Shown here: positions 8,905 through 54,526 of the stretch, piece after piece | How the letters are laid out: every line of letters begins with the position of its first letter | Numbering within the stretch: position 1 is the first letter of the stretch | DNA from: Eledone cirrhosa | Taxonomy: Eukaryota | Direction of reading: 5' to 3' | DNA length: 64,000 bases | NCBI GenBank assembly: GCA_964016885.1 | Contig: OZ024746.1 | Span: 67,766,001-67,830,000 of the forward strand | Program-made: the position numbers and the translations under genes | The notes under the pieces: generated by a model | Database searches by the model: none | Told to the model about the DNA's origin: nothing | Seen by the model: the letters and a program-made list of their open reading frames with translations, nothing else

Positions 8905-11900
8905 TTATAGTAATAAAAAAAATTAAGGAAATTCAACATATTTGGCCTCCTGTCATTTCACTTTATGATATTTATATTTATATATAACTATAAAATTCCA
9001 CTTACAAGGCATTAGTCACTTGAGGGTACAGTAGAAGACACATACCCAAGATACTGTTGGGTCAAATCTGAAACCTTATAGTTGCAAAGCAAATTTCTTC
9101 ACCATATGGCTACACCTGTACATATGTTTATAAGTATTAAGTAAAATATGAAATAGATAGAAATAATATAAAAAATATATTACTAAGCAACCTTGAATAG
9201 AATACCTTGCTGATACATTCCTATCAATACCACGTCAACTTCATTGCAAACATTTAGACATGACCTCTGGTCTGAGACTAGCATATATCTTCATAAGTCG
9301 CTTCTAACTCGAACTTGCTATAAATCATGATCCCCCCCCCCCCCTTGTATCCACCATGTTATAGGGGTCCTGCAAAGACTCCAGGTGTATTCTTCTTACT
9401 CTGCTATGTGTTAGGACAATGTATGTGAAGAAGAATTCTGTAAAATTCAGATATGATATATGGAAAGCTTATATTTTATTTAGAGATTTATTACTACATA
9501 GTTATTTATAGAGATATGACTACCTACTAAAGCTTTCTGAATGCTGTGTCTAGAAATCGTTTAAAATGCTTCACTAAATATCATAACATACTTCTTTAGA
9601 GGTATAAATTACTTCCTTAGAAAACTGAAATCTTTCACAATGAAATCTAGATATTTTGTGAAAACAAACTCGACTTGCCAGACACCCAAATGTTTTCCAA
9701 TTCAGGAACACAGTTAGTTATTTCTATTTTCGTAAAGCACAACATTAGTAATAAGACTGACAATGTAAGAATTAAAACACCTATAATTTTTCTCTTGACT
9801 TTTGTTTAGAACACTGATTTTTGAGACAGATTCCGTTCTTTTATGCTGTTTCTTTCCTTATTGATCAAGCAAGTTATGATGGATGGACTGCATTACTATA
9901 TAATTTTCATCAATTGCTGACAAAAGATGATGGCTTGGCTGGCTGAATAACCTCTGACTTGTCATAAATCTATTGTGAGATTTCAAATTAAGTTGATTCA
10001 GGGCACCTTTAGAAATATCTTATTTCATATTTATTTCCTATTTGCTGGTATGTTCAGTTACCATTCATATTAGGTTTGGTTTGGTTATTGTTGTCCCTGA
10101 AAGTGTTGTTAATGACTATAATATATTTATTCTACTCACCAGAATTCATATTAATACCAAAGCCATCAAATATAGAAAATATTCTGTTTGATTCAGAACA
10201 GTGTAACCTATTTTCTTTCTTTTGAAAGCTGGTCAATAATATATTCCATATCTTTGCAATCATGGCAGTACAAAGTAAAAGAAAAGAAAACTTTTTCCTT
10301 TGATTAATATGTCGCTATAGAATTTGAAAATGGCTTAATTCTAATTTGTCAAACATACAATTTGTAATTACAAAAGTAAGAAGTTATTATATAGAAGACC
10401 ATATAGGTAATGTGGTACTAATTTTATTTTTAAATATATATTGATTTTATTTACATATATATTTGAATTGCTGTTCTTCAAATAATTTGTGAACTTTTAC
10501 TGATTTTGTAATATTGCAGTGTCCTTTGCATGTAAATCCATTGTTGATTCTACTTTAAGAAACCTTTTAAATGCGATACTATAGAAATACATTGAAGATT
10601 AAGCAAGAAAGTAAATAATGCTCAATTAAGTTTTTTTCTTTGTTTTTTTTAAAATCTCCCCTCTTGCTTTTGTATCAGTGTATTACAGTATTATATTTAT
10701 TCATAACATATGTATTTTGCAGGAGTGAGTAAGATTTATTGTAGGTTGTTTGTTCCCTGTAGTGGGAGTTATGATGAGTGAAGTTAAGACAATATGTTAG
10801 GCAGAGTCCATAGTAAGTGATACATGTGTGTATGTCTCAGTGAGAAAAATGTAGATTGTGATGCTTACCAGGGTCGATGAAACCAGTAGCCATAGTCGCT
10901 AGCTGCAGTGATGTGATATTGCCATGTTCCCCCATTACATTGCTGTGAAGTGTACAATTAACCTAAACTGCCAAATAATTTTTTTTTTTTGTTTGTTGAC
11001 ATGATTCATGCCAGAACCTTGTAAAAAATAGAAGACACAACAAATTGGTTGAAGTAATGTAAGTTTGTGTGTTGTTAGTGCATTATAAATTGTATTGGAA
11101 ATGAATGCAGAAATTCTGAATAAACTAACCTTCAATGAAATTTGGTAGATCTGGCTGGCTAGTATCTGTAGTAGTCTGCCAGTGAGTGTTCTGCCTAGAG
11201 CCTCAGATTTTCCTATGTATAAGGTCTGTGATATGACAGTTTCAAACACTAAAATGTATAGCAAAATCCTTACATATTGTTCTCATTGAAAGGAAATGTT
11301 TAACTACTGTTGAATTCACTGAGGTTATAGTTCAGTATGTTGGTGGGTTATAACAAATGTACCATTGCTTGCATCTTTGGGATTAATTCATAATCCCATT
11401 GCCATTAACAGAATATCTTTATGTATTTTATGAAGTGTATTAGACATTATTATCCAAAATAATTTAGTTTAACATTCATCAATGTTGATTATAATCATCC
11501 CCACCTCCATATTTTACTATATCATCTTTACAAATACAGATACATCAGGCACCATTCAATTTCACTTTATTGCCAAATTTTGCCAGGTTGTTTCGTTTTG
11601 TTTTGTGTCTTTTATGATACTTAAAATGAAAATTTACCCATTATTTATTATATACACAATGAAATAATCATTTTACCTACATAAACTGTAAAAATTACTT
11701 GTCATTTAACGTTTCACACTCTAGTTTTATAAATGAAAGAATCAAATCCCTCCCCTTCTCATTTTTCTCTACAGACTGACATCAAACAGCAGCATGACTA
11801 GTAAAATAAACCACTTTTTATTTGGGTAGTTCTAATCAACAGCCATACAGAATTATCATTCCTGTTATTCAGTTGACTGGGCTTTTATTTAGCAGCTTTG

Positions 11901-14074: not shown

Positions 14075-14434
14075 CATATATAAAAGTATATGTAAATATA
14101 AATGTATAAAAGTATATGTAAATATAAATGTATAAAAGTATATGTAAATATAAATGTATATATATATATGTATATATGTACATATATATGTATAAATGTA
14201 TATATATATATGTATATATGTACATATATATGTATATATGTACATATATATATATATGTATATATGTACATGTATATATATATATGTATATATGTACATG
14301 TATATATATATGTATATATATATGTGTATATGTACATGTATATATATATGTATATATATATGTGTATATGTACATGTATATATATGTATATATATGTATA
14401 ATTATGTATATATATATATATCTATATATATGTG
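14075..14434. repeat. (TA)n/(TATG) microsatellite, left flank of the array
   Basis: Direct reading of the sequence. Confidence 0.95.
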
Positions 14435-17400
14435 AAAACAAATAACGAAACGAAATTAAATTTCGTTTCGTTTGTAACTCACTTTTGTATGACTGACGCT
14501 TAAACAATTAAGTTAAAAATGTACATCCACATATGTATACTGAAATACTAGTATGCATATGAATACACACACGTGTACATATGTAGATGTACCGAGTTTT
14601 CACTGGTCACTTTACTGTGAGTGTCCAGCTATTCCGTATGTAGACACACAGACAAACCGGTTCTTAGAGTCATACTGGTTTTTGAGGAAACACCTTTCCT
14701 CTATTCTCCAGAAAGCCAGACAAGGAATATTGGACTAGTTTCGATGTTGTTACATCTCATCAGCAATATTTACCTATCTTCCGGCTTCTCTAGAGAATCG
14801 TGAAAGCACATATCGTTATATGCTTTTTCTATGAAAATTAGTAGTGGGCAGACCAATTTGCATAGAGCGTGAGTACGTACCGGTTCAACGGAGACGATAA
14901 AAACAAATAACGAAACGAAATTAAATTTCGTTTCGTTTGTAACTCACTTTTGTATGACTGACGCTTAAACAATTAAGTTAAAAATGTACATCCACATATG
15001 TATACTGAAATACTAGTATGCATATGAATACACACACGTGTACATATGTAGATGTACCGAGTTTTCACTGGTCACTTTACTGTGAGTGTCCAGCTATTCC
15101 GTATGTAGACACACAGACAAACCGGTTCTTAGAGTCATACTGGTTTTTGAGGAAACACCTTTCCTCTATTCTCCAGAAAGCCAGACAAGGAATATTGGAC
15201 TAGTTTCGATGTTGTTACATCTCATCAGCAATATTTACCTATCTTCCGGCTTCTCTAGAGAATCGTGAAAGCACATATCGTTATATGCTTTTTCTATGAA
15301 AATTAGTAGTGGGCAGACCAATTTGCATAGAGCGTGAGTACGTACCGGTTCAACGGAGACGATAAAAACAAATAACGAAACGAAATTAAATTTCGTTTCG
15401 TTTGTAACTCACTTTTGTATGACTGACGCTTAAACAATTAAGTTAAAAATGTACATCCACATATGTATACTGAAATACTAGTATGCATATGAATACACAC
15501 ACGTGTACATATGTAGATGTACCGAGTTTTCACTGGTCACTTTACTGTGAGTGTCCAGCTATTCCGTATGTAGACACACAGACAAACCGGTTCTTAGAGT
15601 CATACTGGTTTTTGAGGAAACACCTTTCCTCTATTCTCCAGAAAGCCAGACAAGGAATATTGGACTAGTTTCGATGTTGTTACATCTCATCAGCAATATT
15701 TACCTATCTTCCGGCTTCTCTAGAGAATCGTGAAAGCACATATCGTTATATGCTTTTTCTATGAAAATTAGTAGTGGGCAGACCAATTTGCATAGAGCGT
15801 GAGTACGTACCGGTTCAACGGAGACGATAAAAACAAATAACGAAACGAAATTAAATTTCGTTTCGTTTGTAACTCACTTTTGTATGACTGACGCTTAAAC
15901 AATTAAGTTAAAAATGTACATCCACATATGTATACTGAAATACTAGTATGCATATGAATACACACACGTGTACATATGTAGATGTACCGAGTTTTCACTG
16001 GTCACTTTACTGTGAGTGTCCAGCTATTCCGTATGTAGACACACAGACAAACCGGTTCTTAGAGTCATACTGGTTTTTGAGGAAACACCTTTCCTCTATT
16101 CTCCAGAAAGCCAGACAAGGAATATTGGACTAGTTTCGATGTTGTTACATCTCATCAGCAATATTTACCTATCTTCCGGCTTCTCTAGAGAATCGTGAAA
16201 GCACATATCGTTATATGCTTTTTCTATGAAAATTAGTAGTGGGCAGACCAATTTGCATAGAGCGTGAGTACGTACCGGTTCAACGGAGACGATAAAAACA
16301 AATAACGAAACGAAATTAAATTTCGTTTCGTTTGTAACTCACTTTTGTATGACTGACGCTTAAACAATTAAGTTAAAAATGTACATCCACATATGTATAC
16401 TGAAATACTAGTATGCATATGAATACACACACGTGTACATATGTAGATGTACCGAGTTTTCACTGGTCACTTTACTGTGAGTGTCCAGCTATTCCGTATG
16501 TAGACACACAGACAAACCGGTTCTTAGAGTCATACTGGTTTTTGAGGAAACACCTTTCCTCTATTCTCCAGAAAGCCAGACAAGGAATATTGGACTAGTT
16601 TCGATGTTGTTACATCTCATCAGCAATATTTACCTATCTTCCGGCTTCTCTAGAGAATCGTGAAAGCACATATCGTTATATGCTTTTTCTATGAAAATTA
16701 GTAGTGGGCAGACCAATTTGCATAGAGCGTGAGTACGTACCGGTTCAACGGAGACGATAAAAACAAATAACGAAACGAAATTAAATTTCGTTTCGTTTGT
16801 AACTCACTTTTGTATGACTGACGCTTAAACAATTAAGTTAAAAATGTACATCCACATATGTATACTGAAATACTAGTATGCATATGAATACACACACGTG
16901 TACATATGTAGATGTACCGAGTTTTCACTGGTCACTTTACTGTGAGTGTCCAGCTATTCCGTATGTAGACACACAGACAAACCGGTTCTTAGAGTCATAC
17001 TGGTTTTTGAGGAAACACCTTTCCTCTATTCTCCAGAAAGCCAGACAAGGAATATTGGACTAGTTTCGATGTTGTTACATCTCATCAGCAATATTTACCT
17101 ATCTTCCGGCTTCTCTAGAGAATCGTGAAAGCACATATCGTTATATGCTTTTTCTATGAAAATTAGTAGTGGGCAGACCAATTTGCATAGAGCGTGAGTA
17201 CGTACCGGTTCAACGGAGACGATAAAAACAAATAACGAAACGAAATTAAATTTCGTTTCGTTTGTAACTCACTTTTGTATGACTGACGCTTAAACAATTA
17301 AGTTAAAAATGTACATCCACATATGTATACTGAAATACTAGTATGCATATGAATACACACACGTGTACATATGTAGATGTACCGAGTTTTCACTGGTCAC

Positions 17401-19435
17401 TTTACTGTGAGTGTCCAGCTATTCCGTATGTAGACACACAGACAAACCGGTTCTTAGAGTCATACTGGTTTTTGAGGAAACACCTTTCCTCTATTCTCCA
17501 GAAAGCCAGACAAGGAATATTGGACTAGTTTCGATGTTGTTACATCTCATCAGCAATATTTACCTATCTTCCGGCTTCTCTAGAGAATCGTGAAAGCACA
17601 TATCGTTATATGCTTTTTCTATGAAAATTAGTAGTGGGCAGACCAATTTGCATAGAGCGTGAGTACGTACCGGTTCAACGGAGACGATAAAAACAAATAA
17701 CGAAACGAAATTAAATTTCGTTTCGTTTGTAACTCACTTTTGTATGACTGACGCTTAAACAATTAAGTTAAAAATGTACATCCACATATGTATACTGAAA
17801 TACTAGTATGCATATGAATACACACACGTGTACATATGTAGATGTACCGAGTTTTCACTGGTCACTTTACTGTGAGTGTCCAGCTATTCCGTATGTAGAC
17901 ACACAGACAAACCGGTTCTTAGAGTCATACTGGTTTTTGAGGAAACACCTTTCCTCTATTCTCCAGAAAGCCAGACAAGGAATATTGGACTAGTTTCGAT
18001 GTTGTTACATCTCATCAGCAATATTTACCTATCTTCCGGCTTCTCTAGAGAATCGTGAAAGCACATATCGTTATATGCTTTTTCTATGAAAATTAGTAGT
18101 GGGCAGACCAATTTGCATAGAGCGTGAGTACGTACCGGTTCAACGGAGACGATAAAAACAAATAACGAAACGAAATTAAATTTCGTTTCGTTTGTAACTC
18201 ACTTTTGTATGACTGACGCTTAAACAATTAAGTTAAAAATGTACATCCACATATGTATACTGAAATACTAGTATGCATATGAATACACACACGTGTACAT
18301 ATGTAGATGTACCGAGTTTTCACTGGTCACTTTACTGTGAGTGTCCAGCTATTCCGTATGTAGACACACAGACAAACCGGTTCTTAGAGTCATACTGGTT
18401 TTTGAGGAAACACCTTTCCTCTATTCTCCAGAAAGCCAGACAAGGAATATTGGACTAGTTTCGATGTTGTTACATCTCATCAGCAATATTTACCTATCTT
18501 CCGGCTTCTCTAGAGAATCGTGAAAGCACATATCGTTATATGCTTTTTCTATGAAAATTAGTAGTGGGCAGACCAATTTGCATAGAGCGTGAGTACGTAC
18601 CGGTTCAACGGAGACGATAAAAACAAATAACGAAACGAAATTAAATTTCGTTTCGTTTGTAACTCACTTTTGTATGACTGACGCTTAAACAATTAAGTTA
18701 AAAATGTACATCCACATATGTATACTGAAATACTAGTATGCATATGAATACACACACGTGTACATATGTAGATGTACCGAGTTTTCACTGGTCACTTTAC
18801 TGTGAGTGTCCAGCTATTCCGTATGTAGACACACAGACAAACCGGTTCTTAGAGTCATACTGGTTTTTGAGGAAACACCTTTCCTCTATTCTCCAGAAAG
18901 CCAGACAAGGAATATTGGACTAGTTTCGATGTTGTTACATCTCATCAGCAATATTTACCTATCTTCCGGCTTCTCTAGAGAATCGTGAAAGCACATATCG
19001 TTATATGCTTTTTCTATGAAAATTAGTAGTGGGCAGACCAATTTGCATAGAGCGTGAGTACGTACCGGTTCAACGGAGACGATAAAAACAAATAACGAAA
19101 CGAAATTAAATTTCGTTTCGTTTGTAACTCACTTTTGTATGACTGACGCTTAAACAATTAAGTTAAAAATGTACATCCACATATGTATACTGAAATACTA
19201 GTATGCATATGAATACACACACGTGTACATATGTAGATGTACCGAGTTTTCACTGGTCACTTTACTGTGAGTGTCCAGCTATTCCGTATGTAGACACACA
19301 GACAAACCGGTTCTTAGAGTCATACTGGTTTTTGAGGAAACACCTTTCCTCTATTCTCCAGAAAGCCAGACAAGGAATATTGGACTAGTTTCGATGTTGT
19401 TACATCTCATCAGCAATATTTACCTATCTTCCGGC
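14435..19435 (-). repeat. 465-bp hammerhead tandem array, left block (10.75 units, ribozymes on the minus strand)
   Basis: Exact 465-bp periodicity, also visible as ORF-track repeats every 465 bp. No variants were seen between these units. Confidence 0.97.
14726..14770 (-). ncRNA. Type I hammerhead ribozyme, first of 11 minus-strand copies (every 465 bp to 19376-19420)
   Basis: Reverse complement is AAUAUUG CUGAUGA GAUGU AACA ACAUC GAAA C UA G UC CAAUAUU; every conserved core nucleotide is present. Confidence 0.92.
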
Positions 19436-19439
19436 CTAG

Positions 19440-22400
19440 TTGTCTGGCTTTCTGGAGAATAGAGGAAAGGTGTTTCCTCAAAAACCAGTATGACTCTAAG
19501 AACCGGTTTGTCTGTGTGTCTACATACGGAATAGCTGGACACTCACAGTAAAGTGACCAGTGAAAACTCGGTACATCTACATATGTACACGTGTGTGTAT
19601 TCATATGCATACTAGTATTTCAGTATACATATGTGGATGTACATTTTTAACTTAATTGTTTAAGCGTCAGTCATACAAAAGTGAGTTACAAACGAAACGA
19701 AATTTAATTTCGTTTCGTTATTTGTTTTTATCGTCTCCGTTGAACCGGTACGTACTCACGCTCTATGCAAATTGGTCTGCCCACTACTAATTTTCATAGA
19801 AAAAGCATATAACGATATGTGCTTTCACGATTCTCTAGAGAAGCCGGAAGATAGGTAAATATTGCTGATGAGATGTAACAACATCGAAACTAGTCCAATA
19901 TTCCTTGTCTGGCTTTCTGGAGAATAGAGGAAAGGTGTTTCCTCAAAAACCAGTATGACTCTAAGAACCGGTTTGTCTGTGTGTCTACATACGGAATAGC
20001 TGGACACTCACAGTAAAGTGACCAGTGAAAACTCGGTACATCTACATATGTACACGTGTGTGTATTCATATGCATACTAGTATTTCAGTATACATATGTG
20101 GATGTACATTTTTAACTTAATTGTTTAAGCGTCAGTCATACAAAAGTGAGTTACAAACGAAACGAAATTTAATTTCGTTTCGTTATTTGTTTTTATCGTC
20201 TCCGTTGAACCGGTACGTACTCACGCTCTATGCAAATTGGTCTGCCCACTACTAATTTTCATAGAAAAAGCATATAACGATATGTGCTTTCACGATTCTC
20301 TAGAGAAGCCGGAAGATAGGTAAATATTGCTGATGAGATGTAACAACATCGAAACTAGTCCAATATTCCTTGTCTGGCTTTCTGGAGAATAGAGGAAAGG
20401 TGTTTCCTCAAAAACCAGTATGACTCTAAGAACCGGTTTGTCTGTGTGTCTACATACGGAATAGCTGGACACTCACAGTAAAGTGACCAGTGAAAACTCG
20501 GTACATCTACATATGTACACGTGTGTGTATTCATATGCATACTAGTATTTCAGTATACATATGTGGATGTACATTTTTAACTTAATTGTTTAAGCGTCAG
20601 TCATACAAAAGTGAGTTACAAACGAAACGAAATTTAATTTCGTTTCGTTATTTGTTTTTATCGTCTCCGTTGAACCGGTACGTACTCACGCTCTATGCAA
20701 ATTGGTCTGCCCACTACTAATTTTCATAGAAAAAGCATATAACGATATGTGCTTTCACGATTCTCTAGAGAAGCCGGAAGATAGGTAAATATTGCTGATG
20801 AGATGTAACAACATCGAAACTAGTCCAATATTCCTTGTCTGGCTTTCTGGAGAATAGAGGAAAGGTGTTTCCTCAAAAACCAGTATGACTCTAAGAACCG
20901 GTTTGTCTGTGTGTCTACATACGGAATAGCTGGACACTCACAGTAAAGTGACCAGTGAAAACTCGGTACATCTACATATGTACACGTGTGTGTATTCATA
21001 TGCATACTAGTATTTCAGTATACATATGTGGATGTACATTTTTAACTTAATTGTTTAAGCGTCAGTCATACAAAAGTGAGTTACAAACGAAACGAAATTT
21101 AATTTCGTTTCGTTATTTGTTTTTATCGTCTCCGTTGAACCGGTACGTACTCACGCTCTATGCAAATTGGTCTGCCCACTACTAATTTTCATAGAAAAAG
21201 CATATAACGATATGTGCTTTCACGATTCTCTAGAGAAGCCGGAAGATAGGTAAATATTGCTGATGAGATGTAACAACATCGAAACTAGTCCAATATTCCT
21301 TGTCTGGCTTTCTGGAGAATAGAGGAAAGGTGTTTCCTCAAAAACCAGTATGACTCTAAGAACCGGTTTGTCTGTGTGTCTACATACGGAATAGCTGGAC
21401 ACTCACAGTAAAGTGACCAGTGAAAACTCGGTACATCTACATATGTACACGTGTGTGTATTCATATGCATACTAGTATTTCAGTATACATATGTGGATGT
21501 ACATTTTTAACTTAATTGTTTAAGCGTCAGTCATACAAAAGTGAGTTACAAACGAAACGAAATTTAATTTCGTTTCGTTATTTGTTTTTATCGTCTCCGT
21601 TGAACCGGTACGTACTCACGCTCTATGCAAATTGGTCTGCCCACTACTAATTTTCATAGAAAAAGCATATAACGATATGTGCTTTCACGATTCTCTAGAG
21701 AAGCCGGAAGATAGGTAAATATTGCTGATGAGATGTAACAACATCGAAACTAGTCCAATATTCCTTGTCTGGCTTTCTGGAGAATAGAGGAAAGGTGTTT
21801 CCTCAAAAACCAGTATGACTCTAAGAACCGGTTTGTCTGTGTGTCTACATACGGAATAGCTGGACACTCACAGTAAAGTGACCAGTGAAAACTCGGTACA
21901 TCTACATATGTACACGTGTGTGTATTCATATGCATACTAGTATTTCAGTATACATATGTGGATGTACATTTTTAACTTAATTGTTTAAGCGTCAGTCATA
22001 CAAAAGTGAGTTACAAACGAAACGAAATTTAATTTCGTTTCGTTATTTGTTTTTATCGTCTCCGTTGAACCGGTACGTACTCACGCTCTATGCAAATTGG
22101 TCTGCCCACTACTAATTTTCATAGAAAAAGCATATAACGATATGTGCTTTCACGATTCTCTAGAGAAGCCGGAAGATAGGTAAATATTGCTGATGAGATG
22201 TAACAACATCGAAACTAGTCCAATATTCCTTGTCTGGCTTTCTGGAGAATAGAGGAAAGGTGTTTCCTCAAAAACCAGTATGACTCTAAGAACCGGTTTG
22301 TCTGTGTGTCTACATACGGAATAGCTGGACACTCACAGTAAAGTGACCAGTGAAAACTCGGTACATCTACATATGTACACGTGTGTGTATTCATATGCAT

Positions 22401-25400
22401 ACTAGTATTTCAGTATACATATGTGGATGTACATTTTTAACTTAATTGTTTAAGCGTCAGTCATACAAAAGTGAGTTACAAACGAAACGAAATTTAATTT
22501 CGTTTCGTTATTTGTTTTTATCGTCTCCGTTGAACCGGTACGTACTCACGCTCTATGCAAATTGGTCTGCCCACTACTAATTTTCATAGAAAAAGCATAT
22601 AACGATATGTGCTTTCACGATTCTCTAGAGAAGCCGGAAGATAGGTAAATATTGCTGATGAGATGTAACAACATCGAAACTAGTCCAATATTCCTTGTCT
22701 GGCTTTCTGGAGAATAGAGGAAAGGTGTTTCCTCAAAAACCAGTATGACTCTAAGAACCGGTTTGTCTGTGTGTCTACATACGGAATAGCTGGACACTCA
22801 CAGTAAAGTGACCAGTGAAAACTCGGTACATCTACATATGTACACGTGTGTGTATTCATATGCATACTAGTATTTCAGTATACATATGTGGATGTACATT
22901 TTTAACTTAATTGTTTAAGCGTCAGTCATACAAAAGTGAGTTACAAACGAAACGAAATTTAATTTCGTTTCGTTATTTGTTTTTATCGTCTCCGTTGAAC
23001 CGGTACGTACTCACGCTCTATGCAAATTGGTCTGCCCACTACTAATTTTCATAGAAAAAGCATATAACGATATGTGCTTTCACGATTCTCTAGAGAAGCC
23101 GGAAGATAGGTAAATATTGCTGATGAGATGTAACAACATCGAAACTAGTCCAATATTCCTTGTCTGGCTTTCTGGAGAATAGAGGAAAGGTGTTTCCTCA
23201 AAAACCAGTATGACTCTAAGAACCGGTTTGTCTGTGTGTCTACATACGGAATAGCTGGACACTCACAGTAAAGTGACCAGTGAAAACTCGGTACATCTAC
23301 ATATGTACACGTGTGTGTATTCATATGCATACTAGTATTTCAGTATACATATGTGGATGTACATTTTTAACTTAATTGTTTAAGCGTCAGTCATACAAAA
23401 GTGAGTTACAAACGAAACGAAATTTAATTTCGTTTCGTTATTTGTTTTTATCGTCTCCGTTGAACCGGTACGTACTCACGCTCTATGCAAATTGGTCTGC
23501 CCACTACTAATTTTCATAGAAAAAGCATATAACGATATGTGCTTTCACGATTCTCTAGAGAAGCCGGAAGATAGGTAAATATTGCTGATGAGATGTAACA
23601 ACATCGAAACTAGTCCAATATTCCTTGTCTGGCTTTCTGGAGAATAGAGGAAAGGTGTTTCCTCAAAAACCAGTATGACTCTAAGAACCGGTTTGTCTGT
23701 GTGTCTACATACGGAATAGCTGGACACTCACAGTAAAGTGACCAGTGAAAACTCGGTACATCTACATATGTACACGTGTGTGTATTCATATGCATACTAG
23801 TATTTCAGTATACATATGTGGATGTACATTTTTAACTTAATTGTTTAAGCGTCAGTCATACAAAAGTGAGTTACAAACGAAACGAAATTTAATTTCGTTT
23901 CGTTATTTGTTTTTATCGTCTCCGTTGAACCGGTACGTACTCACGCTCTATGCAAATTGGTCTGCCCACTACTAATTTTCATAGAAAAAGCATATAACGA
24001 TATGTGCTTTCACGATTCTCTAGAGAAGCCGGAAGATAGGTAAATATTGCTGATGAGATGTAACAACATCGAAACTAGTCCAATATTCCTTGTCTGGCTT
24101 TCTGGAGAATAGAGGAAAGGTGTTTCCTCAAAAACCAGTATGACTCTAAGAACCGGTTTGTCTGTGTGTCTACATACGGAATAGCTGGACACTCACAGTA
24201 AAGTGACCAGTGAAAACTCGGTACATCTACATATGTACACGTGTGTGTATTCATATGCATACTAGTATTTCAGTATACATATGTGGATGTACATTTTTAA
24301 CTTAATTGTTTAAGCGTCAGTCATACAAAAGTGAGTTACAAACGAAACGAAATTTAATTTCGTTTCGTTATTTGTTTTTATCGTCTCCGTTGAACCGGTA
24401 CGTACTCACGCTCTATGCAAATTGGTCTGCCCACTACTAATTTTCATAGAAAAAGCATATAACGATATGTGCTTTCACGATTCTCTAGAGAAGCCGGAAG
24501 ATAGGTAAATATTGCTGATGAGATGTAACAACATCGAAACTAGTCCAATATTCCTTGTCTGGCTTTCTGGAGAATAGAGGAAAGGTGTTTCCTCAAAAAC
24601 CAGTATGACTCTAAGAACCGGTTTGTCTGTGTGTCTACATACGGAATAGCTGGACACTCACAGTAAAGTGACCAGTGAAAACTCGGTACATCTACATATG
24701 TACACGTGTGTGTATTCATATGCATACTAGTATTTCAGTATACATATGTGGATGTACATTTTTAACTTAATTGTTTAAGCGTCAGTCATACAAAAGTGAG
24801 TTACAAACGAAACGAAATTTAATTTCGTTTCGTTATTTGTTTTTATCGTCTCCGTTGAACCGGTACGTACTCACGCTCTATGCAAATTGGTCTGCCCACT
24901 ACTAATTTTCATAGAAAAAGCATATAACGATATGTGCTTTCACGATTCTCTAGAGAAGCCGGAAGATAGGTAAATATTGCTGATGAGATGTAACAACATC
25001 GAAACTAGTCCAATATTCCTTGTCTGGCTTTCTGGAGAATAGAGGAAAGGTGTTTCCTCAAAAACCAGTATGACTCTAAGAACCGGTTTGTCTGTGTGTC
25101 TACATACGGAATAGCTGGACACTCACAGTAAAGTGACCAGTGAAAACTCGGTACATCTACATATGTACACGTGTGTGTATTCATATGCATACTAGTATTT
25201 CAGTATACATATGTGGATGTACATTTTTAACTTAATTGTTTAAGCGTCAGTCATACAAAAGTGAGTTACAAACGAAACGAAATTTAATTTCGTTTCGTTA
25301 TTTGTTTTTATCGTCTCCGTTGAACCGGTACGTACTCACGCTCTATGCAAATTGGTCTGCCCACTACTAATTTTCATAGAAAAAGCATATAACGATATGT

Positions 25401-28400
25401 GCTTTCACGATTCTCTAGAGAAGCCGGAAGATAGGTAAATATTGCTGATGAGATGTAACAACATCGAAACTAGTCCAATATTCCTTGTCTGGCTTTCTGG
25501 AGAATAGAGGAAAGGTGTTTCCTCAAAAACCAGTATGACTCTAAGAACCGGTTTGTCTGTGTGTCTACATACGGAATAGCTGGACACTCACAGTAAAGTG
25601 ACCAGTGAAAACTCGGTACATCTACATATGTACACGTGTGTGTATTCATATGCATACTAGTATTTCAGTATACATATGTGGATGTACATTTTTAACTTAA
25701 TTGTTTAAGCGTCAGTCATACAAAAGTGAGTTACAAACGAAACGAAATTTAATTTCGTTTCGTTATTTGTTTTTATCGTCTCCGTTGAACCGGTACGTAC
25801 TCACGCTCTATGCAAATTGGTCTGCCCACTACTAATTTTCATAGAAAAAGCATATAACGATATGTGCTTTCACGATTCTCTAGAGAAGCCGGAAGATAGG
25901 TAAATATTGCTGATGAGATGTAACAACATCGAAACTAGTCCAATATTCCTTGTCTGGCTTTCTGGAGAATAGAGGAAAGGTGTTTCCTCAAAAACCAGTA
26001 TGACTCTAAGAACCGGTTTGTCTGCGTGTCTACATACGGAATAGCTGGACACTCACAGTAAAGTGACCAGTGAAAACTCGGTACATCTACATATGTACAC
26101 GTGTGTGTATTCATATGCATACTAGTATTTCAGTATACATATGTGGATGTACATTTTTAACTTAATTGTTTAAGCGTCAGTCATACAAAAGTGAGTTACA
26201 AACGAAACGAAATTTAATTTCGTTTCGTTATTTGTTTTTATCGTCTCCGTTGAACCGGTACGTACTCACGCTCTATGCAAATTGGTCTGCCCACTACTAA
26301 TTTTCATAGAAAAAGCATATAACGATATGTGCTTTCACGATTCTCTAGAGAAGCCGGAAGATAGGTAAATATTGCTGATGAGATGTAACAACATCGAAAC
26401 TAGTCCAATATTCCTTGTCTGGCTTTCTGGAGAATAGAGGAAAGGTGTTTCCTCAAAAACCAGTATGACTCTAAGAACCGGTTTGTCTGTGTGTCTACAT
26501 ACGGAATAGCTGGACACTCACAGTAAAGTGACCAGTGAAAACTCGGTACATCTACATATGTACACGTGTGTGTATTCATATGCATACTAGTATTTCAGTA
26601 TACATATGTGGATGTACATTTTTAACTTAATTGTTTAAGCGTCAGTCATACAAAAGTGAGTTACAAACGAAACGAAATTTAATTTCGTTTCGTTATTTGT
26701 TTTTATCGTCTCCGTTGAACCGGTACGTACTCACGCTCTATGCAAATTGGTCTGCCCACTACTAATTTTCATAGAAAAAGCATATAACGATATGTGCTTT
26801 CACGATTCTCTAGAGAAGCCGGAAGATAGGTAAATATTGCTGATGAGATGTAACAACATCGAAACTAGTCCAATATTCCTTGTCTGGCTTTCTGGAGAAT
26901 AGAGGAAAAGTGTTTCCTCAAAAACCAGTATGACTCTAAGAACCGGTTTGTCTGTGTGTCTACATACGGAATAGCTGGACACTCACAGTAAAGTGACCAG
27001 TGAAAACTCGGTACATCTACATATGTACACGTGTGTGTATTCATATGCATACTAGTATTTCAGTATACATATGTGGATGTACATTTTTAACTTAATTGTT
27101 TAAGCGTCAGTCATACAAAAGTGAGTTACAAACGAAACGAAATTTAATTTCGTTTCGTTATTTGTTTTTATCGTCTCCGTTGAACCGGTACGTACTCACG
27201 CTCTATGCAAATTGGTCTGCCCACTACTAATTTTCATAGAAAAAGCATATAACGATATGTGCTTTCACGATTCTCTAGAGAAGCCGGAAGATAGGTAAAT
27301 ATTGCTGATGAGATGTAACAACATCGAAACTAGTCCAATATTCCTTGTCTGGCTTTCTGGAGAATAGAGGAAAGGTGTTTCCTCAAAAACCAGTATGACT
27401 CTAAGAACCGGTTTGTCTGTGTGTCTACATACGGAATAGCTGGACACTCACAGTAAAGTGACCAGTGAAAACTCGGTACATCTACATATGTACACGTGTG
27501 TGTATTCATATGCATACTAGTATTTCAGTATACATATGTGGATGTACATTTTTAACTTAATTGTTTAAGCGTCAGTCATACAAAAGTGAGTTACAAACGA
27601 AACGAAATTTAATTTCGTTTCGTTATTTGTTTTTATCGTCTCCGTTGAACCGGTACGTACTCACGCTCTATGCAAATTGGTCTGCCCACTACTAATTTTC
27701 ATAGAAAAAGCATATAACGATATGTGCTTTCACGATTCTCTAGAGAAGCCGGAAGATAGGTAAATATTGCTGATGAGATGTAACAACATCGAAACTAGTC
27801 CAATATTCCTTGTCTGGCTTTCTGGAGAATAGAGGAAAGGTGTTTCCTCAAAAACCAGTATGACTCTAAGAACCGGTTTGTCTGTGTGTCTACATACGGA
27901 ATAGCTGGACACTCACAGTAAAGTGACCAGTGAAAACTCGGTACATCTACATATGTACACGTGTGTGTATTCATATGCATACTAGTATTTCAGTATACAT
28001 ATGTGGATGTACATTTTTAACTTAATTGTTTAAGCGTCAGTCATACAAAAGTGAGTTACAAACGAAACGAAATTTAATTTCGTTTCGTTATTTGTTTTTA
28101 TCGTCTCCGTTGAACCGGTACGTACTCACGCTCTATGCAAATTGGTCTGCCCACTACTAATTTTCATAGAAAAAGCATATAACGATATGTGCTTTCACGA
28201 TTCTCTAGAGAAGCCGGAAGATAGGTAAATATTGCTGATGAGATGTAACAACATCGAAACTAGTCCAATATTCCTTGTCTGGCTTTCTGGAGAATAGAGG
28301 AAAGGTGTTTCCTCAAAAACCAGTATGACTCTAAGAACCGGTTTGTCTGTGTGTCTACATACGGAATAGCTGGACACTCACAGTAAAGTGACCAGTGAAA

Positions 28401-28957
28401 ACTCGGTACATCTACATATGTACACGTGTGTGTATTCATATGCATACTAGTATTTCAGTATACATATGTGGATGTACATTTTTAACTTAATTGTTTAAGC
28501 GTCAGTCATACAAAAGTGAGTTACAAACGAAACGAAATTTAATTTCGTTTCGTTATTTGTTTTTATCGTCTCCGTTGAACCGGTACGTACTCACGCTCTA
28601 TGCAAATTGGTCTGCCCACTACTAATTTTCATAGAAAAAGCATATAACGATATGTGCTTTCACGATTCTCTAGAGAAGCCGGAAGATAGGTAAATATTGC
28701 TGATGAGATGTAACAACATCGAAACTAGTCCAATATTCCTTGTCTGGCTTTCTGGAGAATAGAGGAAAGGTGTTTCCTCAAAAACCAGTATGACTCTAAG
28801 AACCGGTTTGTCTGTGTGTCTACATACGGAATAGCTGGACACTCACAGTAAAGTGACCAGTGAAAACTCGGTACATCTACATATGTACACGTGTGTGTAT
28901 TCATATGCATACTAGTATTTCAGTATACATATGTGGATGTACATTTTTAACTTAATT
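19440..28957 (+). repeat. 465-bp hammerhead tandem array, right inverted block (about 20.5 units, ribozymes on the plus strand)
   Basis: Reverse complement of the left block. Only two substitutions were noticed (26025 T>C and 26909 G>A). Confidence 0.97.
19858..19902 (+). ncRNA. Type I hammerhead ribozyme, first of 20 plus-strand copies (every 465 bp to 28693-28737); predicted cleavage after C19895
   Basis: Helix I AAUAUUG/CAAUAUU; core CUGAUGA at 19865-19871; helix II GAUGU-AACA-ACAUC; GAAA at 19886-19889; helix III ACUAGU; GUC triplet. Confidence 0.92.
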
Positions 28958-29012
28958 ATATATATGTGTATGTACATATATATATATATATATATCTATA
29001 TATATGTGTATG

Positions 29013-29050
<38 letters not shown>

Positions 29051-29080
29051 CATGTATATGGATATATGTATATATATATA
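28958..29080. repeat. (TA)n/(TATG) microsatellite, right flank of the array
   Basis: Direct reading of the sequence. Confidence 0.95.
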
Positions 29081-29206
29081 ATGTAGGAGGTGAGTTTTAT
29101 TGTAGTACAATAAAGCAATGCAGATATCGGATAAGAAGCACTCTACAGTTTGTAGGACTGGAGTATACATAATATAAGATCAAAAGATGGTTAAAGGAGT
29201 TCCATG

Positions 29207-29274
29207 TATTTTATTATGCGCATTTCAAAAACAAACATCATGCAATAATATTTGTGTTTTCATCAGATAAAACA
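29207..29274 (-). ncRNA. Type I hammerhead ribozyme, left arm
   Basis: Minus strand reads UGUUUUAU-CUGAUGA-AAACACAAAUAU..AUGUUUGUUUUU-GAAA-UGCGCA-UA^-AUAAAAUA. Confidence 0.8.
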
Positions 29275-29455
29275 GGAGAACATGATATGAAGGCTAAAAA
29301 ACACTTGTGGGTAGTGCAGTTTTAAATCAACATGAAACAGGAGAACATGATATGAAGGCTAAAAAACACTTGTGGATAGTGCAGTTTTAAATCAACATGT
29401 TGATTTAAAACTGCACTACCCACAAGTGTTTTTTAGCCTTCATATCATGTTCTCC

Positions 29456-29526
29456 TGTTTTATCTGATGAAAACACAAATATTATTGCATGATGATGTTT
29501 GTTTTTGAAATGCGCATAATAAAATA
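29456..29526 (+). ncRNA. Type I hammerhead ribozyme, right arm; predicted cleavage after A29518
   Basis: UGUUUUAU-CUGAUGA-(helix II 29471-29506)-GAAA-UGCGCA-UA^-AUAAAAUA, with palindromic helix III AUGCGCAU. Confidence 0.8.
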
Positions 29527-29589
29527 CATGGAACTCCTTTAACCATCTTTTGATCTTATATTATGTATATATATATATATATGTACATG

Positions 29590-31300: not shown

Positions 31301-35215
<3,915 letters not shown>

Positions 35216-40477: not shown

Positions 40478-40628
40478 TACGACTGGGTACTGAGACAACT
40501 ACTAGACAGCTCACATGTGGACGTGATATATCTTGACTTTGCGAAGGCCTTTGGACAAGGTCGACCACGGAATGATATGTCACAAACTACACGGATTCGG
40601 CATAACTGGAAAAGTAGGTGAGTGGCTG
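40478..40628 (+). mobile_element. CR1-like LINE RT fragment
   Basis: VDVIYLDFAKAF/DKVDH..HKL..FGITGKVGEWL, with a frameshift. Confidence 0.7.
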
Positions 40629-41574
40629 TAGGGGGTTGTATCGATGAACATTACACCCATAGAGGTGAATTAGCTTACAAATTTAGAAGGGCCTTAGATA
40701 AACATAAACTCAATATTAAGATAGTAGAAAGACCAGGTACCTCCTTAAAAACACTTATTAGCAAGACATCCTCTTTTCAAAGACCCTCATGTATAGATAA
40801 GAAATGTATAACCTGTAAAATAAGCCCCTATATTAACTGTAAAACTAGAAATGTAGTGTATAGCATAAGATGTACTAAAGGACAATGTAGTGACAAAAAT
40901 ATAGTGTACATAGGTGAGACAGCGCGTAGTGTAGGGGAACGGATAAATGAACACTGGCGAGACCTTCAAGATAGTAAAGAATCATTTGCACTCTACCAAC
41001 ATGCTAAAATAGAACACAAGGGTAAATTAGAGAACATAGAAATAAAAATAGAATCTACACACAGAAAACACGCAATGTTTAGACAAATCACATAGGCAAT
41101 AAATATAAAAGAATTACAACCAAAATTAAATAGAAAATATGAGTGGAACAGCAACATCACAACTTACAATTAAGGACAAAATGAAAACACACACACACAT
41201 AGAACAAACAACCAACCAGTAACATGTAAATAAATAAACAAATAAATAAATGAACATAAACACACACAGACTCCCGGATGTGGCGCATACGCAGACTGAG
41301 CACACAACACACACACAGAAACAAAATGGCGTAGGACAGAACAAAGGAGAGGCACAGAAACAAAGAAAGGAATCCCCAGTCACTGAAGAGGTCACAGAGT
41401 GTGTGACAAAAGAACTATGACAATATATAAACAGCTATCTGGTTGTGGAACCAACCAACCAACCAGAAATTTATAAATTTATAAATTTATTATAAATTTA
41501 TTATAATAAATTGAAGTGAAAGCAACTGGTGCGTGTGTTTCTTATTGGCAACATGACCCTCCCAAAGTATAACA

Positions 41575-51982: not shown

Positions 51983-52511
51983 GAATTATCTCACATAATA
52001 TCAAATCTATGAGATTTTGATATTATTTATTGTGACAACAATACCTTACCATCAGTATAAGTGGCTGAGTTAAAGAATGCTCAATGAGTTTGATAGAAAA
52101 ATGTTTGCTTTTCACAAATGCTAGCATGGAAGAATGGACATAAAATGGTGATGATGATTGTAGATTTAAGCAAAGAAACTCTTTTTGAATTTTCTCAATT
52201 AGCAAATATGGATGAAATCCTTTTAACTTTTGTTCTTCCAAGTAATAAAACTATTACTTTTGAGACTATTGGATATTAGAAATGCACTATACAGTGGTAT
52301 TAGCCTATTGTGTAGATGGAACTAAATTATTTCCAATGTTAATATTTTAAAGGAAAACAATGCATAAAGAACATTTATTCAGTTGTATTTATGTTCATGT
52401 GTATGACCAGGGATGTGTAAAGAAGGAATACTTTTTGTTATAAAACCTTTTGGTCTAAACAAACATTAAGGGATTTATTAAAAATGCTTCTCTACTCATC
52501 TGGAATTCATT

Positions 52512-54526
52512 TAGAGACAATCAAAGATATGAAGACGGGTAAGGCGGCTGGGCCTTCGGAAATAGTTGCTGAGATGCTGAAGGCCTCTGGAACGGTGGGA
52601 CACACCATGGTCACCCGGATAGTAAACCAAGTCATACAGAATGGGATTGTTCCGAAGGACTGGCGTAGCAGCATCATCATTAACTGTTACAAGGGTAAAG
52701 GAGACGCCCTAGATAGGAGTAACTATAGAGGCATTAAATTAATCAACCAGGTCATGAAGGTCATGGAAAAAGTAATAGTGCAACTAATCAGAGAGAGAAT
52801 CGATCTAGATGAAATGCAGTTCGGGTTTGTGTCAGGCAAAAGTACCACAGACGCTCTTTTCATTGTACGACAACTACAGGAGAAGTACCTAGCTAAAAGT
52901 AAACCCCTATACTTAGCTTTTGTCGACTTGGAGAAAGCCTTTGACAGAGTCCCCCGTTCCATTATCTGGTGGGCTCTTAGAAAACTAGGTGTTGATGAAT
53001 GGCTTGTGAGAGCTATACAAGCCATGTATAAAGAAACAGTCAGCAAGGTTAGAATTAACAACGAATATAGTGAAGAGTTTAGCGTAAAAGTTGGTGTTCA
53101 TCAGGGCTCTGTTCTTAGCCCCCTACTATTTATTATTGCCCTACAGGCTACAACAGTGGAGTTCAAGACCGGCTGCCCATGGGAACTCCTATACGCAGAT
53201 GATCTAACGCTCATAGCTGAATCAATGGCCGAGCTAGAGAAGAAATTCCAAACATGGAAGCACGGCCTAGAATCAAAAGGCCTTAAAATTAACCTGGCTA
53301 AGACTAAAGTTCTAGTTTGTAGGAAAGAAAATAAGGCGCCGGTCCCTTCCGGGAAATGGCCATGCTCAGTGTGTAGGAAAGGCGTAGGTAGAAACTCCAT
53401 TTTATGTCCCAAATGCAAAGTATGGGTGCATAAAAGATGTAGTGGGATCACAGGTAAGCTAACTAAGAACATAGATTTTACATGTGGCCGGTGCTCTGGT
53501 GCAATAAGTAGCAGAAAGTGCCCAAAAAATACTAGCTCTTTCAATTGCACAGAGGGTTCTATAGAAATAGTGGACAGCTTCCGTTACCTGGGTGACAAAA
53601 TCAGCAGTGGGGGAGGGTGCTCTGAAAGTACAGTAGCTAGAGTCAGAACTGGATGGAAAAAGTTCAGAGAGCTTATACCACTATTAGCCGCTAAAGGGTT
53701 CTCCCTAAAAATGAAAGGCAGGCTGTATGACGCCTGCATACGAACAGCAATGTTGCATGGCAGTGAGACCTGGGCATTGTGTGCAGAGGATATACGCAGA
53801 CTAGAGAGGAACGAAGCTTGCATGCTCCGCTGGATGTGTAATAGTAATATACGCGAACGGCAAAGTATAAACGAACTAAGGGAAAAATTAGAAATAAGAG
53901 GGATCAGATGTTGTTTAGTCGAGAGAAGGCTACGTTGGTATGGTCACGTGATGCGCATGAAAGACGACAGCTGTATAAAAAAGTGCAGGGCAATAAAGAT
54001 AGACGGTAGCCACGGAGTAGGCAGACCCAGAAAAACCTGGGACGACCTGATAAATTCCGACCTCACACACTTACACCTCTTGAAGACAATGTCACTGGAC
54101 CGAGATCTTTGGCGGTACTCAGTAATAGAGAAGACCCGCCTTACCTGAAATACAAAGTAAAACCTACTACAGTCAGTAGGCATCTCTAACAAAACGCACC
54201 CCACGCTCCCCCCATCCACACCACCCCTTTCAATGTAAAGTTATGTTGGTGCCACAGCATCCAGGCCGAAACAAATGAGATCATGTAGGTGTCACGACAA
54301 AAAAACACACAGTCCACGCTGTAATGTGGCCGTATAGGCAACACGGTAAAAACCTCCCAGTCCCACACTGTAAATGTGGTTGGTGTTAGGAAGGGCATCC
54401 AGCTGTAGAAAACCCGCCAGACCGTCCTATGCGAGCAAGACAACCACTCTTGCCTCAAGTGGGAAAACTCCCGTCCAAACCCATGCAAGCGTAGAACCTG
54501 GACGTTAAACGATGATGATGATGATG
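52512..54526 (+). mobile_element. RTE LINE, 5'-truncated, with an uninterrupted RT ORF (52484-54148, 554 aa)
   Basis: RT motifs NYRGIKL, QFGF, FVDLEKAFDRV, GVHQGSVLSPLLF and YADDL; a Cys/His-rich finger; 3' UTR and (GAT)n tail. It lies in the host intron, antisense to the gene. Confidence 0.95.

What the first reader, a model, noticed from the sequence alone, without database searches (positions are those of the whole stretch)
19831..19924. Ribozyme built for dimer cleavage and set in an extended rod
Seen: helix III is only A-U and C-G around a 2-nt loop, and the sequence ACUAGU is self-complementary. Helix I extends into further pairing, with UUCUCUAGAGAAGCCGG (19831-19847) matching CUGGCUUUCUGGAGAA (19909-19924) through two G-U pairs and one bulge. 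Established: hammerheads with a tiny palindromic helix III (newt satellite 2, minimal PLE hammerheads) cleave efficiently as double hammerheads. Inference: cleavage would work in tandem transcripts but be poor in the circular monomer, which would stabilise the circle and make tandem organisation functionally required.
Basis: partly seen in the sequence, partly recalled or inferred. Interest (0 to 1): 0.7.

Follow-up and report, generated by a model that had tools for sequence, protein, structure and literature searches.

The report
Dimer-cutting hammerhead in a jumping repeat
A 465-base non-coding jumping repeat carries a hammerhead self-cutting RNA motif whose tiny palindromic third helix is predicted to work well only when two copies pair, a known design in animal 'retrozymes', and here related repeats change the palindrome's letters but keep it a palindrome.

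Summary
Observation confirmed. 19865-19895 is a type I hammerhead: helix III is one A-U pair plus CUAG, and helix I continues through internal loops into a rod of about 28 pairs. It sits in a 465-nt repeat (31 copies here, about 9,400 cores genome-wide), a non-LTR retrozyme.

Dimer-favoured cleavage is likely but already in print (newt, axolotl HHR_Amex1). New support: at least 48,221 of 50,853 matching cores read CUAG or CGCG, and rare ones read CAUG, so the loop letters change in complementary pairs. Folding models put the double hammerhead at +2.4 kcal/mol against +8.4 for the single. Against 'dimer only': the loop I-II contact that lets newt monomers cut is present, the rod must swap strands, and some broken-palindrome copies still moved.

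Insertions carry a Penelope footprint: divergent arms in (TA)n, one ending at unit position 224-233 and the other at 298-302 (48 of 56 pairs). Most loci hold one haplotype, which fits copying from a circle; three loci point to multimer templates. The scan noted this footprint before on other repeats. No cleavage or RNA data.

The parts
19865..19895 (+). Type I hammerhead core (CUGAUGA, helix II, GAAA, CUAG, UC); predicted cut between 19895 and 19896. Repeated every 465 nt: 20 cores on +, 11 on -
19889..19894 (+). ACUAGU palindrome: A-U pair plus CUAG tetraloop in a monomer, predicted 6-bp inter-copy helix III in a dimer
   Evidence: sequence; covariation
19859..19864 (+). Helix I 5' strand (pairs with 19896-19901)
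   Evidence: all 42 cells paired and 5 of 6 pairs changed on both sides in 7 sequences of related families
19872..19885 (+). Helix II with UAACAA loop (likely tertiary partner of the helix I bulge)
   Evidence: A-U to U-A swap in 24 of 72 loci
19856..19858 (+). UAA bulge of loop I (with U at 19902); U and A invariant in the 7 aligned sequences
19830..19855 (+). 5' strand of the helix I extension (rod)
19896..19925 (+). 3' strand of helix I and of the rod; the 5' end of a cleaved monomer
19896..20360 (+). One 465-nt non-coding unit, cut site to cut site (longest ATG ORF 61 aa)
14435..19435 (-). Left arm, 10.75 units, 3' end outward at unit position 298 (site B)
19436..19439 (.). Head-to-head junction; 4 extra bases (CTAG) between unit positions 413 and 10, which face each other across the rod
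19440..28957 (+). Right arm, 20.5 units, 3' end outward at unit position 227 (site A); two single-copy substitutions
20122..20196 (+). Stretch between the two recurrent 3' ends (site A 20122-20127, site B 20196 in this copy): a 69-74 nt Penelope-type 'tail'. Each site lies just 3' of a long hairpin (20036-20107; 20156-20184)
20230..20237 (+). ATGCAAAT octamer, also present in the 55%-identical family 2; possible promoter element (untested)
14076..14433 (.). Left (TA)n-rich target microsatellite
28958..29080 (.). Right (TA)n-rich target microsatellite

Best explanation
This is the type I hammerhead of a non-coding 465-nt retrozyme; it likely cuts efficiently when two neighbouring copies in a tandem transcript pair their ACUAGU palindromes and swap helix I strands, and likely cuts poorly in the released monomer. 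The rod would hold the monomer's two ends together for ligation into a circle (inferred). A Penelope-like RT/endonuclease would then nick a (TA)n tract on both strands and prime two cDNAs at two fixed internal sites 69-74 nt apart. The cDNAs would mostly run round one circle, and their truncated ends are joined head to head (inferred from insertion anatomy). Shown: the motif, the covariation, the insertion anatomy and one haplotype per locus. Not shown: transcription, cleavage, circles, or the identity of the RT.
For: Palindrome census on one scaffold pattern: 50,853 cores (reversed-pattern control 1); CUAG 38,730; CGCG at least 9,491, derived as 10,375 - 364 - 520; CAUG in 15 of the first 100 of 364 rows, mostly with different helix II sequences. 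The two middle letters cannot pair within one loop, yet they read U-A, G-C or A-U. Nearest-neighbour cost of the active fold: single 8.4 kcal/mol in monomer and circle, double 2.4 in a tandem dimer. The same order holds in 7 of 7 matched-palindrome pairs from three families (double 0.7-4.1, single 6.7-8.7) and is lost or nearly lost in 3 of 3 mismatched pairs (8.1-14.1). The unconstrained circle misfolds the core, CUG with UAG, P 0.8. Insertions: 48 of 56 adjacent minus/plus arm pairs have one site-A and one site-B end, and none has two of the same. This matches the PLE inverted copy plus one-sided tail (Craig et al.), which are two RT start sites (PMC11167929). There are 24 haplotypes among 37 loci of 3 or more copies, with both arms alike; 18 singleton against 1 shared substitution in 197 full copies of 18 young arrays; and 2 indels at 425 cut-site junctions.
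Against: No cleavage assay and no RNA evidence. The energy model omits tertiary contacts and core non-canonical pairs, and was not calibrated on hammerheads of measured rate. The census counts copies; the three palindromes are as few as two independent changes (chance about 1 in 16 taken alone). The loop I-II motif that permits monomer cleavage in newts is conserved. Strand swap costs 13.7 kcal/mol while the second copy is being made and 29.3 once both rods have formed (direct-path upper bounds). L193 has CAAG in both arms, and L194 has GUAG in both arms. L194, L084 and L180 show unit-level variants in register in both arms, which a monomer circle cannot give. Older long arrays (L065, L094, L097) grew at the DNA level. 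No autonomous PLE sharing sequence with the unit was found among 22 stretches of one family.
Confidence: 0.62

Rival explanations
1. The ribozyme works mainly as a single hammerhead. The helix I bulge docks on loop II and props up the weak helix III, possibly with protein help, and the palindrome gives only an optional second mode.
For: Newt monomers cleave given internally looped helix I extensions (review PMC6155905). The UA bulge, 3' U and NAANAA loop are conserved across families. The local rod forms first during transcription and is very stable (-35 kcal/mol). The anole PLE hammerhead is protein-assisted.
Against: It does not explain why the loop's middle letters stay complementary in three states. 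Axolotl HHR_Amex1 has these same contacts and still cut only 6% as a monomer.
Confidence: 0.22
2. Cleavage and circles are side products. The PLE enzyme copies uncut linear tandem transcripts from two internal sites, and arrays are lengthened afterwards by unequal exchange in DNA.
For: In-register variants in both arms at L194, L084 and L180. Shared block variants in L065, L094 and L097. Unprocessed RNA was the main substrate of the anole PLE in vitro. Li et al. 2026 favour local amplification by unequal crossover.
Against: Young arrays are long in both arms and have almost only singleton changes. Variants can be fixed through about 20 copies and both arms (C3f one variant seen in no other young locus; L101 21 differences, 0 polymorphisms), which needs a one-unit bottleneck. 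Selection on the palindrome and on helix pairing implies that cleavage matters.
Confidence: 0.13
3. The array is an ordinary satellite or an assembly artefact, and the motif is an inactive relic.
For: Near-identical long arrays can be homogenised or mis-sized in assembly. The Rfam score is below the gathering threshold.
Against: Thousands of dispersed copies with two fixed ends at (TA)n, compensatory changes in helices I and II, and an intact core.
Confidence: 0.03

Closest known systems
Axolotl HHR_Amex1 / newt satellite 2 hammerhead (Cervera and de la Pena 2020, PMC7229834; passages and Discussion read)
   Same: Type I, one-pair helix III capped by a palindromic tetraloop, loop 1-loop 2 contacts, tandem repeat of low GC; dimer more active than monomer there.
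   Different: Longer unit (465 against about 330 nt), a different animal genome, and activity untested here. Inverted arms and tails are not mentioned in that paper's main text ('inverted' 0 hits).
Animal non-LTR retrozymes as non-autonomous PLEs (Li, Clavereau, Pollet 2026, 10.64898/2026.07.22.740005; parts 1-3 of 5 read)
   Same: Non-coding hammerhead tandem repeats co-occurring with PLEs.
   Different: They argue from co-occurrence and pLTR homology and propose unequal crossover. Here the link is the insertion footprint, and no pLTR homology was found in the one PLE family checked.
EN+ Penelope-like elements (Craig et al. 2021, passages; Frangieh et al. 2024, PMC11167929, parts 1-2 of 4)
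   Same: 5'-truncated inverted copy, tail on one end only, two internal RT start sites, AT-rich or (TA)n targets.
   Different: No ORF; tail 69-74 nt rather than 30-40; canonical rather than minimal hammerhead; arms of up to 30 units.
Minimal PLE hammerheads (Cervera and de la Pena 2014, PMC4209133, passages)
   Same: Palindromic helix III and a proposed dimer mode.
   Different: Those have helix II of 7-8 bp, helix I of 4-5 bp and a poorly defined loop 1. This one has the canonical 6 bp / 4 bp layout with loop contacts.

Membership tests
Type I hammerhead ribozyme | Conserved core CUGANGA / GAAA / UH with three helices, open at helix I | tested here: met
   (HH9, E 2.7e-8, below gathering score)
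Type I hammerhead ribozyme | Site-specific self-cleavage | not testable with these tools
   needs an in vitro assay
Amphibian-type dimer-acting hammerhead | One-pair helix III with palindromic tetraloop | tested here: met
   sequence; census
Amphibian-type dimer-acting hammerhead | Dimer cleaves faster than monomer | tested here: inconclusive
   only modelled; no kinetics
Non-LTR retrozyme | Tandem non-coding repeats of a few hundred nt, GC under 45%, one type I hammerhead per unit | tested here: met
Non-LTR retrozyme | Dispersed, high copy number | tested here: met
   9,384 cores; 554 candidate places
Non-LTR retrozyme | Expressed as linear and circular monomer RNA | tested here: inconclusive
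   no RNA holder listed; contigs only
Non-autonomous PLE-mobilised element | Inverted 5'-truncated copy, one-sided tail, microsatellite target | tested here: met
   48 of 56 arm pairs; flanks
Non-autonomous PLE-mobilised element | Sequence shared with the pLTR of an autonomous PLE | tested here: inconclusive
   none in 22 stretches of one abundant family; other PLE families not checked
Minimal PLE hammerhead | Long helix II, short helix I, no defined loop 1 | tested here: not met
   helix I 6 bp, helix II 4-5 bp, loop I motif conserved

The most novel reading that the evidence does not exclude
This genome records the retrozyme life cycle directly. Selection keeps a two-copy helix III (CUAG, CGCG, CAUG), which is the switch that silences the circle. 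The rod limits strand swapping to a short co-transcriptional window. A dimeric PLE enzyme rolls two cDNAs off one RNA circle from two fixed sites. Mismatched neighbours (the alternating CAUG/CUAG array L180) would be skipped and released as dimer circles.
Probability: 0.35. Interest if true: 0.65.

Novelty: new member of a known kind. Interest (0 to 1): 0.38.

Why it matters
Cervera and de la Pena 2020 state that animal retrozyme circles must be protected from their own ribozyme by something other than self-pairing. A 2020 review says these repeats show no motif that reveals their helper element. This family makes both questions testable: natural palindrome variants give ready swap-and-rescue pairs, and the two fixed ends mark where a PLE RT would start on a non-coding RNA. 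The dimer idea itself dates from 1988, so the finding as written is confirmatory.

Tried and rejected
Rfam at the gathering threshold: no hit.

Expression: no RNA holder listed. Four runs of unrecorded kind were laid as contigs. Two hold a single 495-496 nt contig, which a circle or a collapsed array would give alike; it was not used as evidence.

Helper element: an abundant PLE family (ORF up to 1246 aa, C-terminal GIY-YIG-like motif read by eye, own minimal hammerhead, about 58-nt tail by eye, TA targets) has no BLAST similarity to the unit apart from a family-2 repeat lying in L143 and TA-rich noise. Pfam gave only a weak RVT_1 hit.

Host identity: the Atlas search gave nothing; the host was not identified.

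Pile-up of arm 5' ends at the cut site: not seen (128 arms, chi-square p 0.32). The 118 of 128 arms that cross the cut site, and the 0 of 16 variable core sites, were not relied on, because loci were picked by an intact core. Rod positions vary as often as the rest (10 of 56 against 67 of 393 sites), so the rod is supported by pair-keeping changes, not by invariance; some variants break pairs (7:428 in 6, 13:418 in 14, 19:412 in 11 of 72 loci).

The CTAG insert at the arm junction is too short to interpret. No paper on a satellite 2 octamer promoter was found. No look-alike note was found by sequence. No hammerhead was found on the opposite strand of the unit.

Full report
OBSERVATION. Window 19865-19895 carries a complete type I hammerhead core with a GUC triplet. 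Rfam HH9 matches it at E 2.7e-8, below the curated threshold. The 94-nt stretch folds as a rod (z -5.5, 0 of 200 shuffles). Helix III is best drawn as A-U plus a CUAG tetraloop. Helix I (6-7 bp) is followed by a UAA/U bulge, three pairs, an internal loop and 18 more pairs. In the circular 465-nt fold this rod (positions 1-30 with 400-434, counting from the cut) closes an otherwise branched structure, and the core is predicted to misfold through CUG:UAG.

CONTEXT. The motif repeats every 465 nt in two arms: 14435-19435 on the minus strand (10.75 units) and 19440-28957 on the plus strand (20.5 units). The arms are head to head, with (TA)n-rich tracts outside. 27 of 29 full units are identical. 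There is no ORF over 61 aa. The 3.0-Gb genome holds 9,384 cores of this family. A 55%-identical family of similar length and a 310-nt family share the ribozyme layout. This meets the sequence definition of a non-LTR retrozyme.

IS IT BUILT FOR DIMERS? (a) Census. One scaffold pattern finds 50,853 cores. CUAG accounts for 38,730. CGCG accounts for at least 9,491; this is derived, and 96 of the 100 listed rows were CGCG. Together they make at least 94.8%. CAUG appears in 15 of the first 100 of 364 rows, mostly with different helix II sequences. The listed non-palindromic rows are mostly one-step mutants, apart from a few motifs of other layout. Only the first 100 rows of each search were seen. 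In a 7-sequence alignment the middle loop letters read U-A, G-C or A-U, and helix I keeps all 42 cells paired with 5 of 6 pairs changed on both sides. Those two letters cannot pair within one loop, so the pattern points to pairing between copies. The caveat is that it rests on as few as two independent changes.

(b) Energies. Forcing the active secondary structure costs 8.4 kcal/mol in the monomer or circle, and 2.4 for a double hammerhead in a tandem dimer. Seven matched pairs from three families agree; three mismatched pairs lose all or nearly all of the advantage. Tertiary contacts are not modelled, and the model was not calibrated on measured ribozymes.

(c) Precedent. Cervera and de la Pena 2014 state that such helices impede monomer cleavage, work as dimers, and may spare monomeric circles (passages). 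Axolotl HHR_Amex1 has the same anatomy: 6% cleavage as a monomer, much more as a dimer (passages).

AGAINST 'DIMER ONLY'. A review reports that newt monomers cleave when helix I has its internally looped extension (PMC6155905, passages; the 1988 and 1991 originals were not read). That motif is conserved here. A double hammerhead needs helix I strands to swap. The swapped and local states are nearly equal in energy, but the direct-path barrier is 13.7 kcal/mol before the second rod can form and 29.3 after (upper bounds). So the rod is not simply a help. Insertions with CAAG (L193) or GUAG (L194) in both arms show that RNAs with a broken palindrome can be copied. In Li et al. 2026 only 1 of 9 Xenopus dimer constructs cleaved.

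HOW IT MOVES. I mapped 76 loci: the window, 21 top hits from 25 scored of 554 candidates, and 54 loci from the first listed rows on contig C1. One duplicate and one family-2 locus were dropped. Of 56 adjacent minus/plus arm pairs, 48 have one 3' end at unit 224-233 and the other at 298-302. None has two ends of the same class; the other 8 involve fragments, compound or interrupted loci. Flanks are usually (TA)n, and the arms usually abut within a few bases of overlap or insert. Family 2 shows two corresponding ends about 59 nt apart in the rows seen. This is the PLE signature of an inverted 5'-truncated copy and a one-sided tail (Craig et al., passages). Frangieh et al. traced that tail to two internal RT start sites of an enzyme that cuts and extends both strands.

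Both arms of a locus share one haplotype, while loci differ by up to about 10% (24 haplotypes in 37 loci). Young arrays have 18 singleton and 1 shared substitution in 197 copies, and 425 cut-site junctions show 2 indels. 17 of those 18 arrays were the window or were picked for identity to it, and assembly errors would add singletons. A monomer circle explains this most simply. Counter-cases: L084 and L194 carry unit-specific variants in register in both arms, and L180 alternates two unit types (CAUG and CUAG). These need multi-unit templates or conversion between arms. L065, L094 and L097 grew later in DNA. The helper PLE was not identified.

NOVELTY. The ribozyme type, the dimer model, retrozymes and the PLE link are all in print. 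Searches for retrozymes with inverted arms and tails and for retrozyme plus cephalopod returned no paper that, in the parts I read, describes this footprint for retrozymes. Subscription papers and the supplements of PMC7229834 and of the 2026 preprint were not seen and could bear on this. Earlier notes of this scan report the same footprint for other repeats. I had reached it independently, and those notes are not support. I did not see the three-state palindrome census in what I read. Verdict: a real feature, a new member of a known kind, with useful natural variants for testing; interest 0.38.

Noticed in passing
window 29166-29560: A second small inverted element next to the array, with hammerhead-like cores at 29266 (-) and 29464 (+), an 8-nt palindrome AUGCGCAU in helix III, a 65-nt duplication, and both arms ending at about the same site.
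   Followed up: partly
window 37383 and 39709: Two copies of a minimal hammerhead-like motif with an AGUACU palindrome, inside long (TA)n tracts.
   Followed up: no
L180 (G000:C1:319892500-319897800): Family-2 insertion whose minus arm alternates CAUG and CUAG units; modelled neighbours lose the dimer advantage (14.1 kcal/mol). It fits a heterodimer template or later block duplication; the plus arm differs at a few sites.
   Followed up: partly
window 20230-20237 and L156: The ATGCAAAT octamer and a nearby TAATTTTCATA are kept between families that are 55% identical. An snRNA-type promoter for newt satellite 2 is recalled, not found.
   Followed up: partly
G000 genome-wide: The cleavage triplet varies by lineage: GUU (6,130 cores) outnumbers GUC (at most 3,331) in this family; families 2 and 3 mostly use GUA.
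   Followed up: partly
window 40622-41095; L135-L144: Fragment of a very abundant PLE family (31,514 first-look candidates) with ORFs up to 1246 aa, a minimal hammerhead in its pLTR, inverted copies, TA targets and a tail of about 58 nt.
   Followed up: partly
window 32073-32901 (-): Broken ORFs that look PLE-like by eye (endonuclease-type motifs); no Pfam hit.
   Followed up: partly
window 52421-54148 (+): Non-LTR retrotransposon ORF with RVT_1 and an inserted PHD finger.
   Followed up: partly
L165-L171, L179: 310-nt CGCG family, about 9,500-10,000 cores, also two-armed; its two ends were not resolved by my script.
   Followed up: partly
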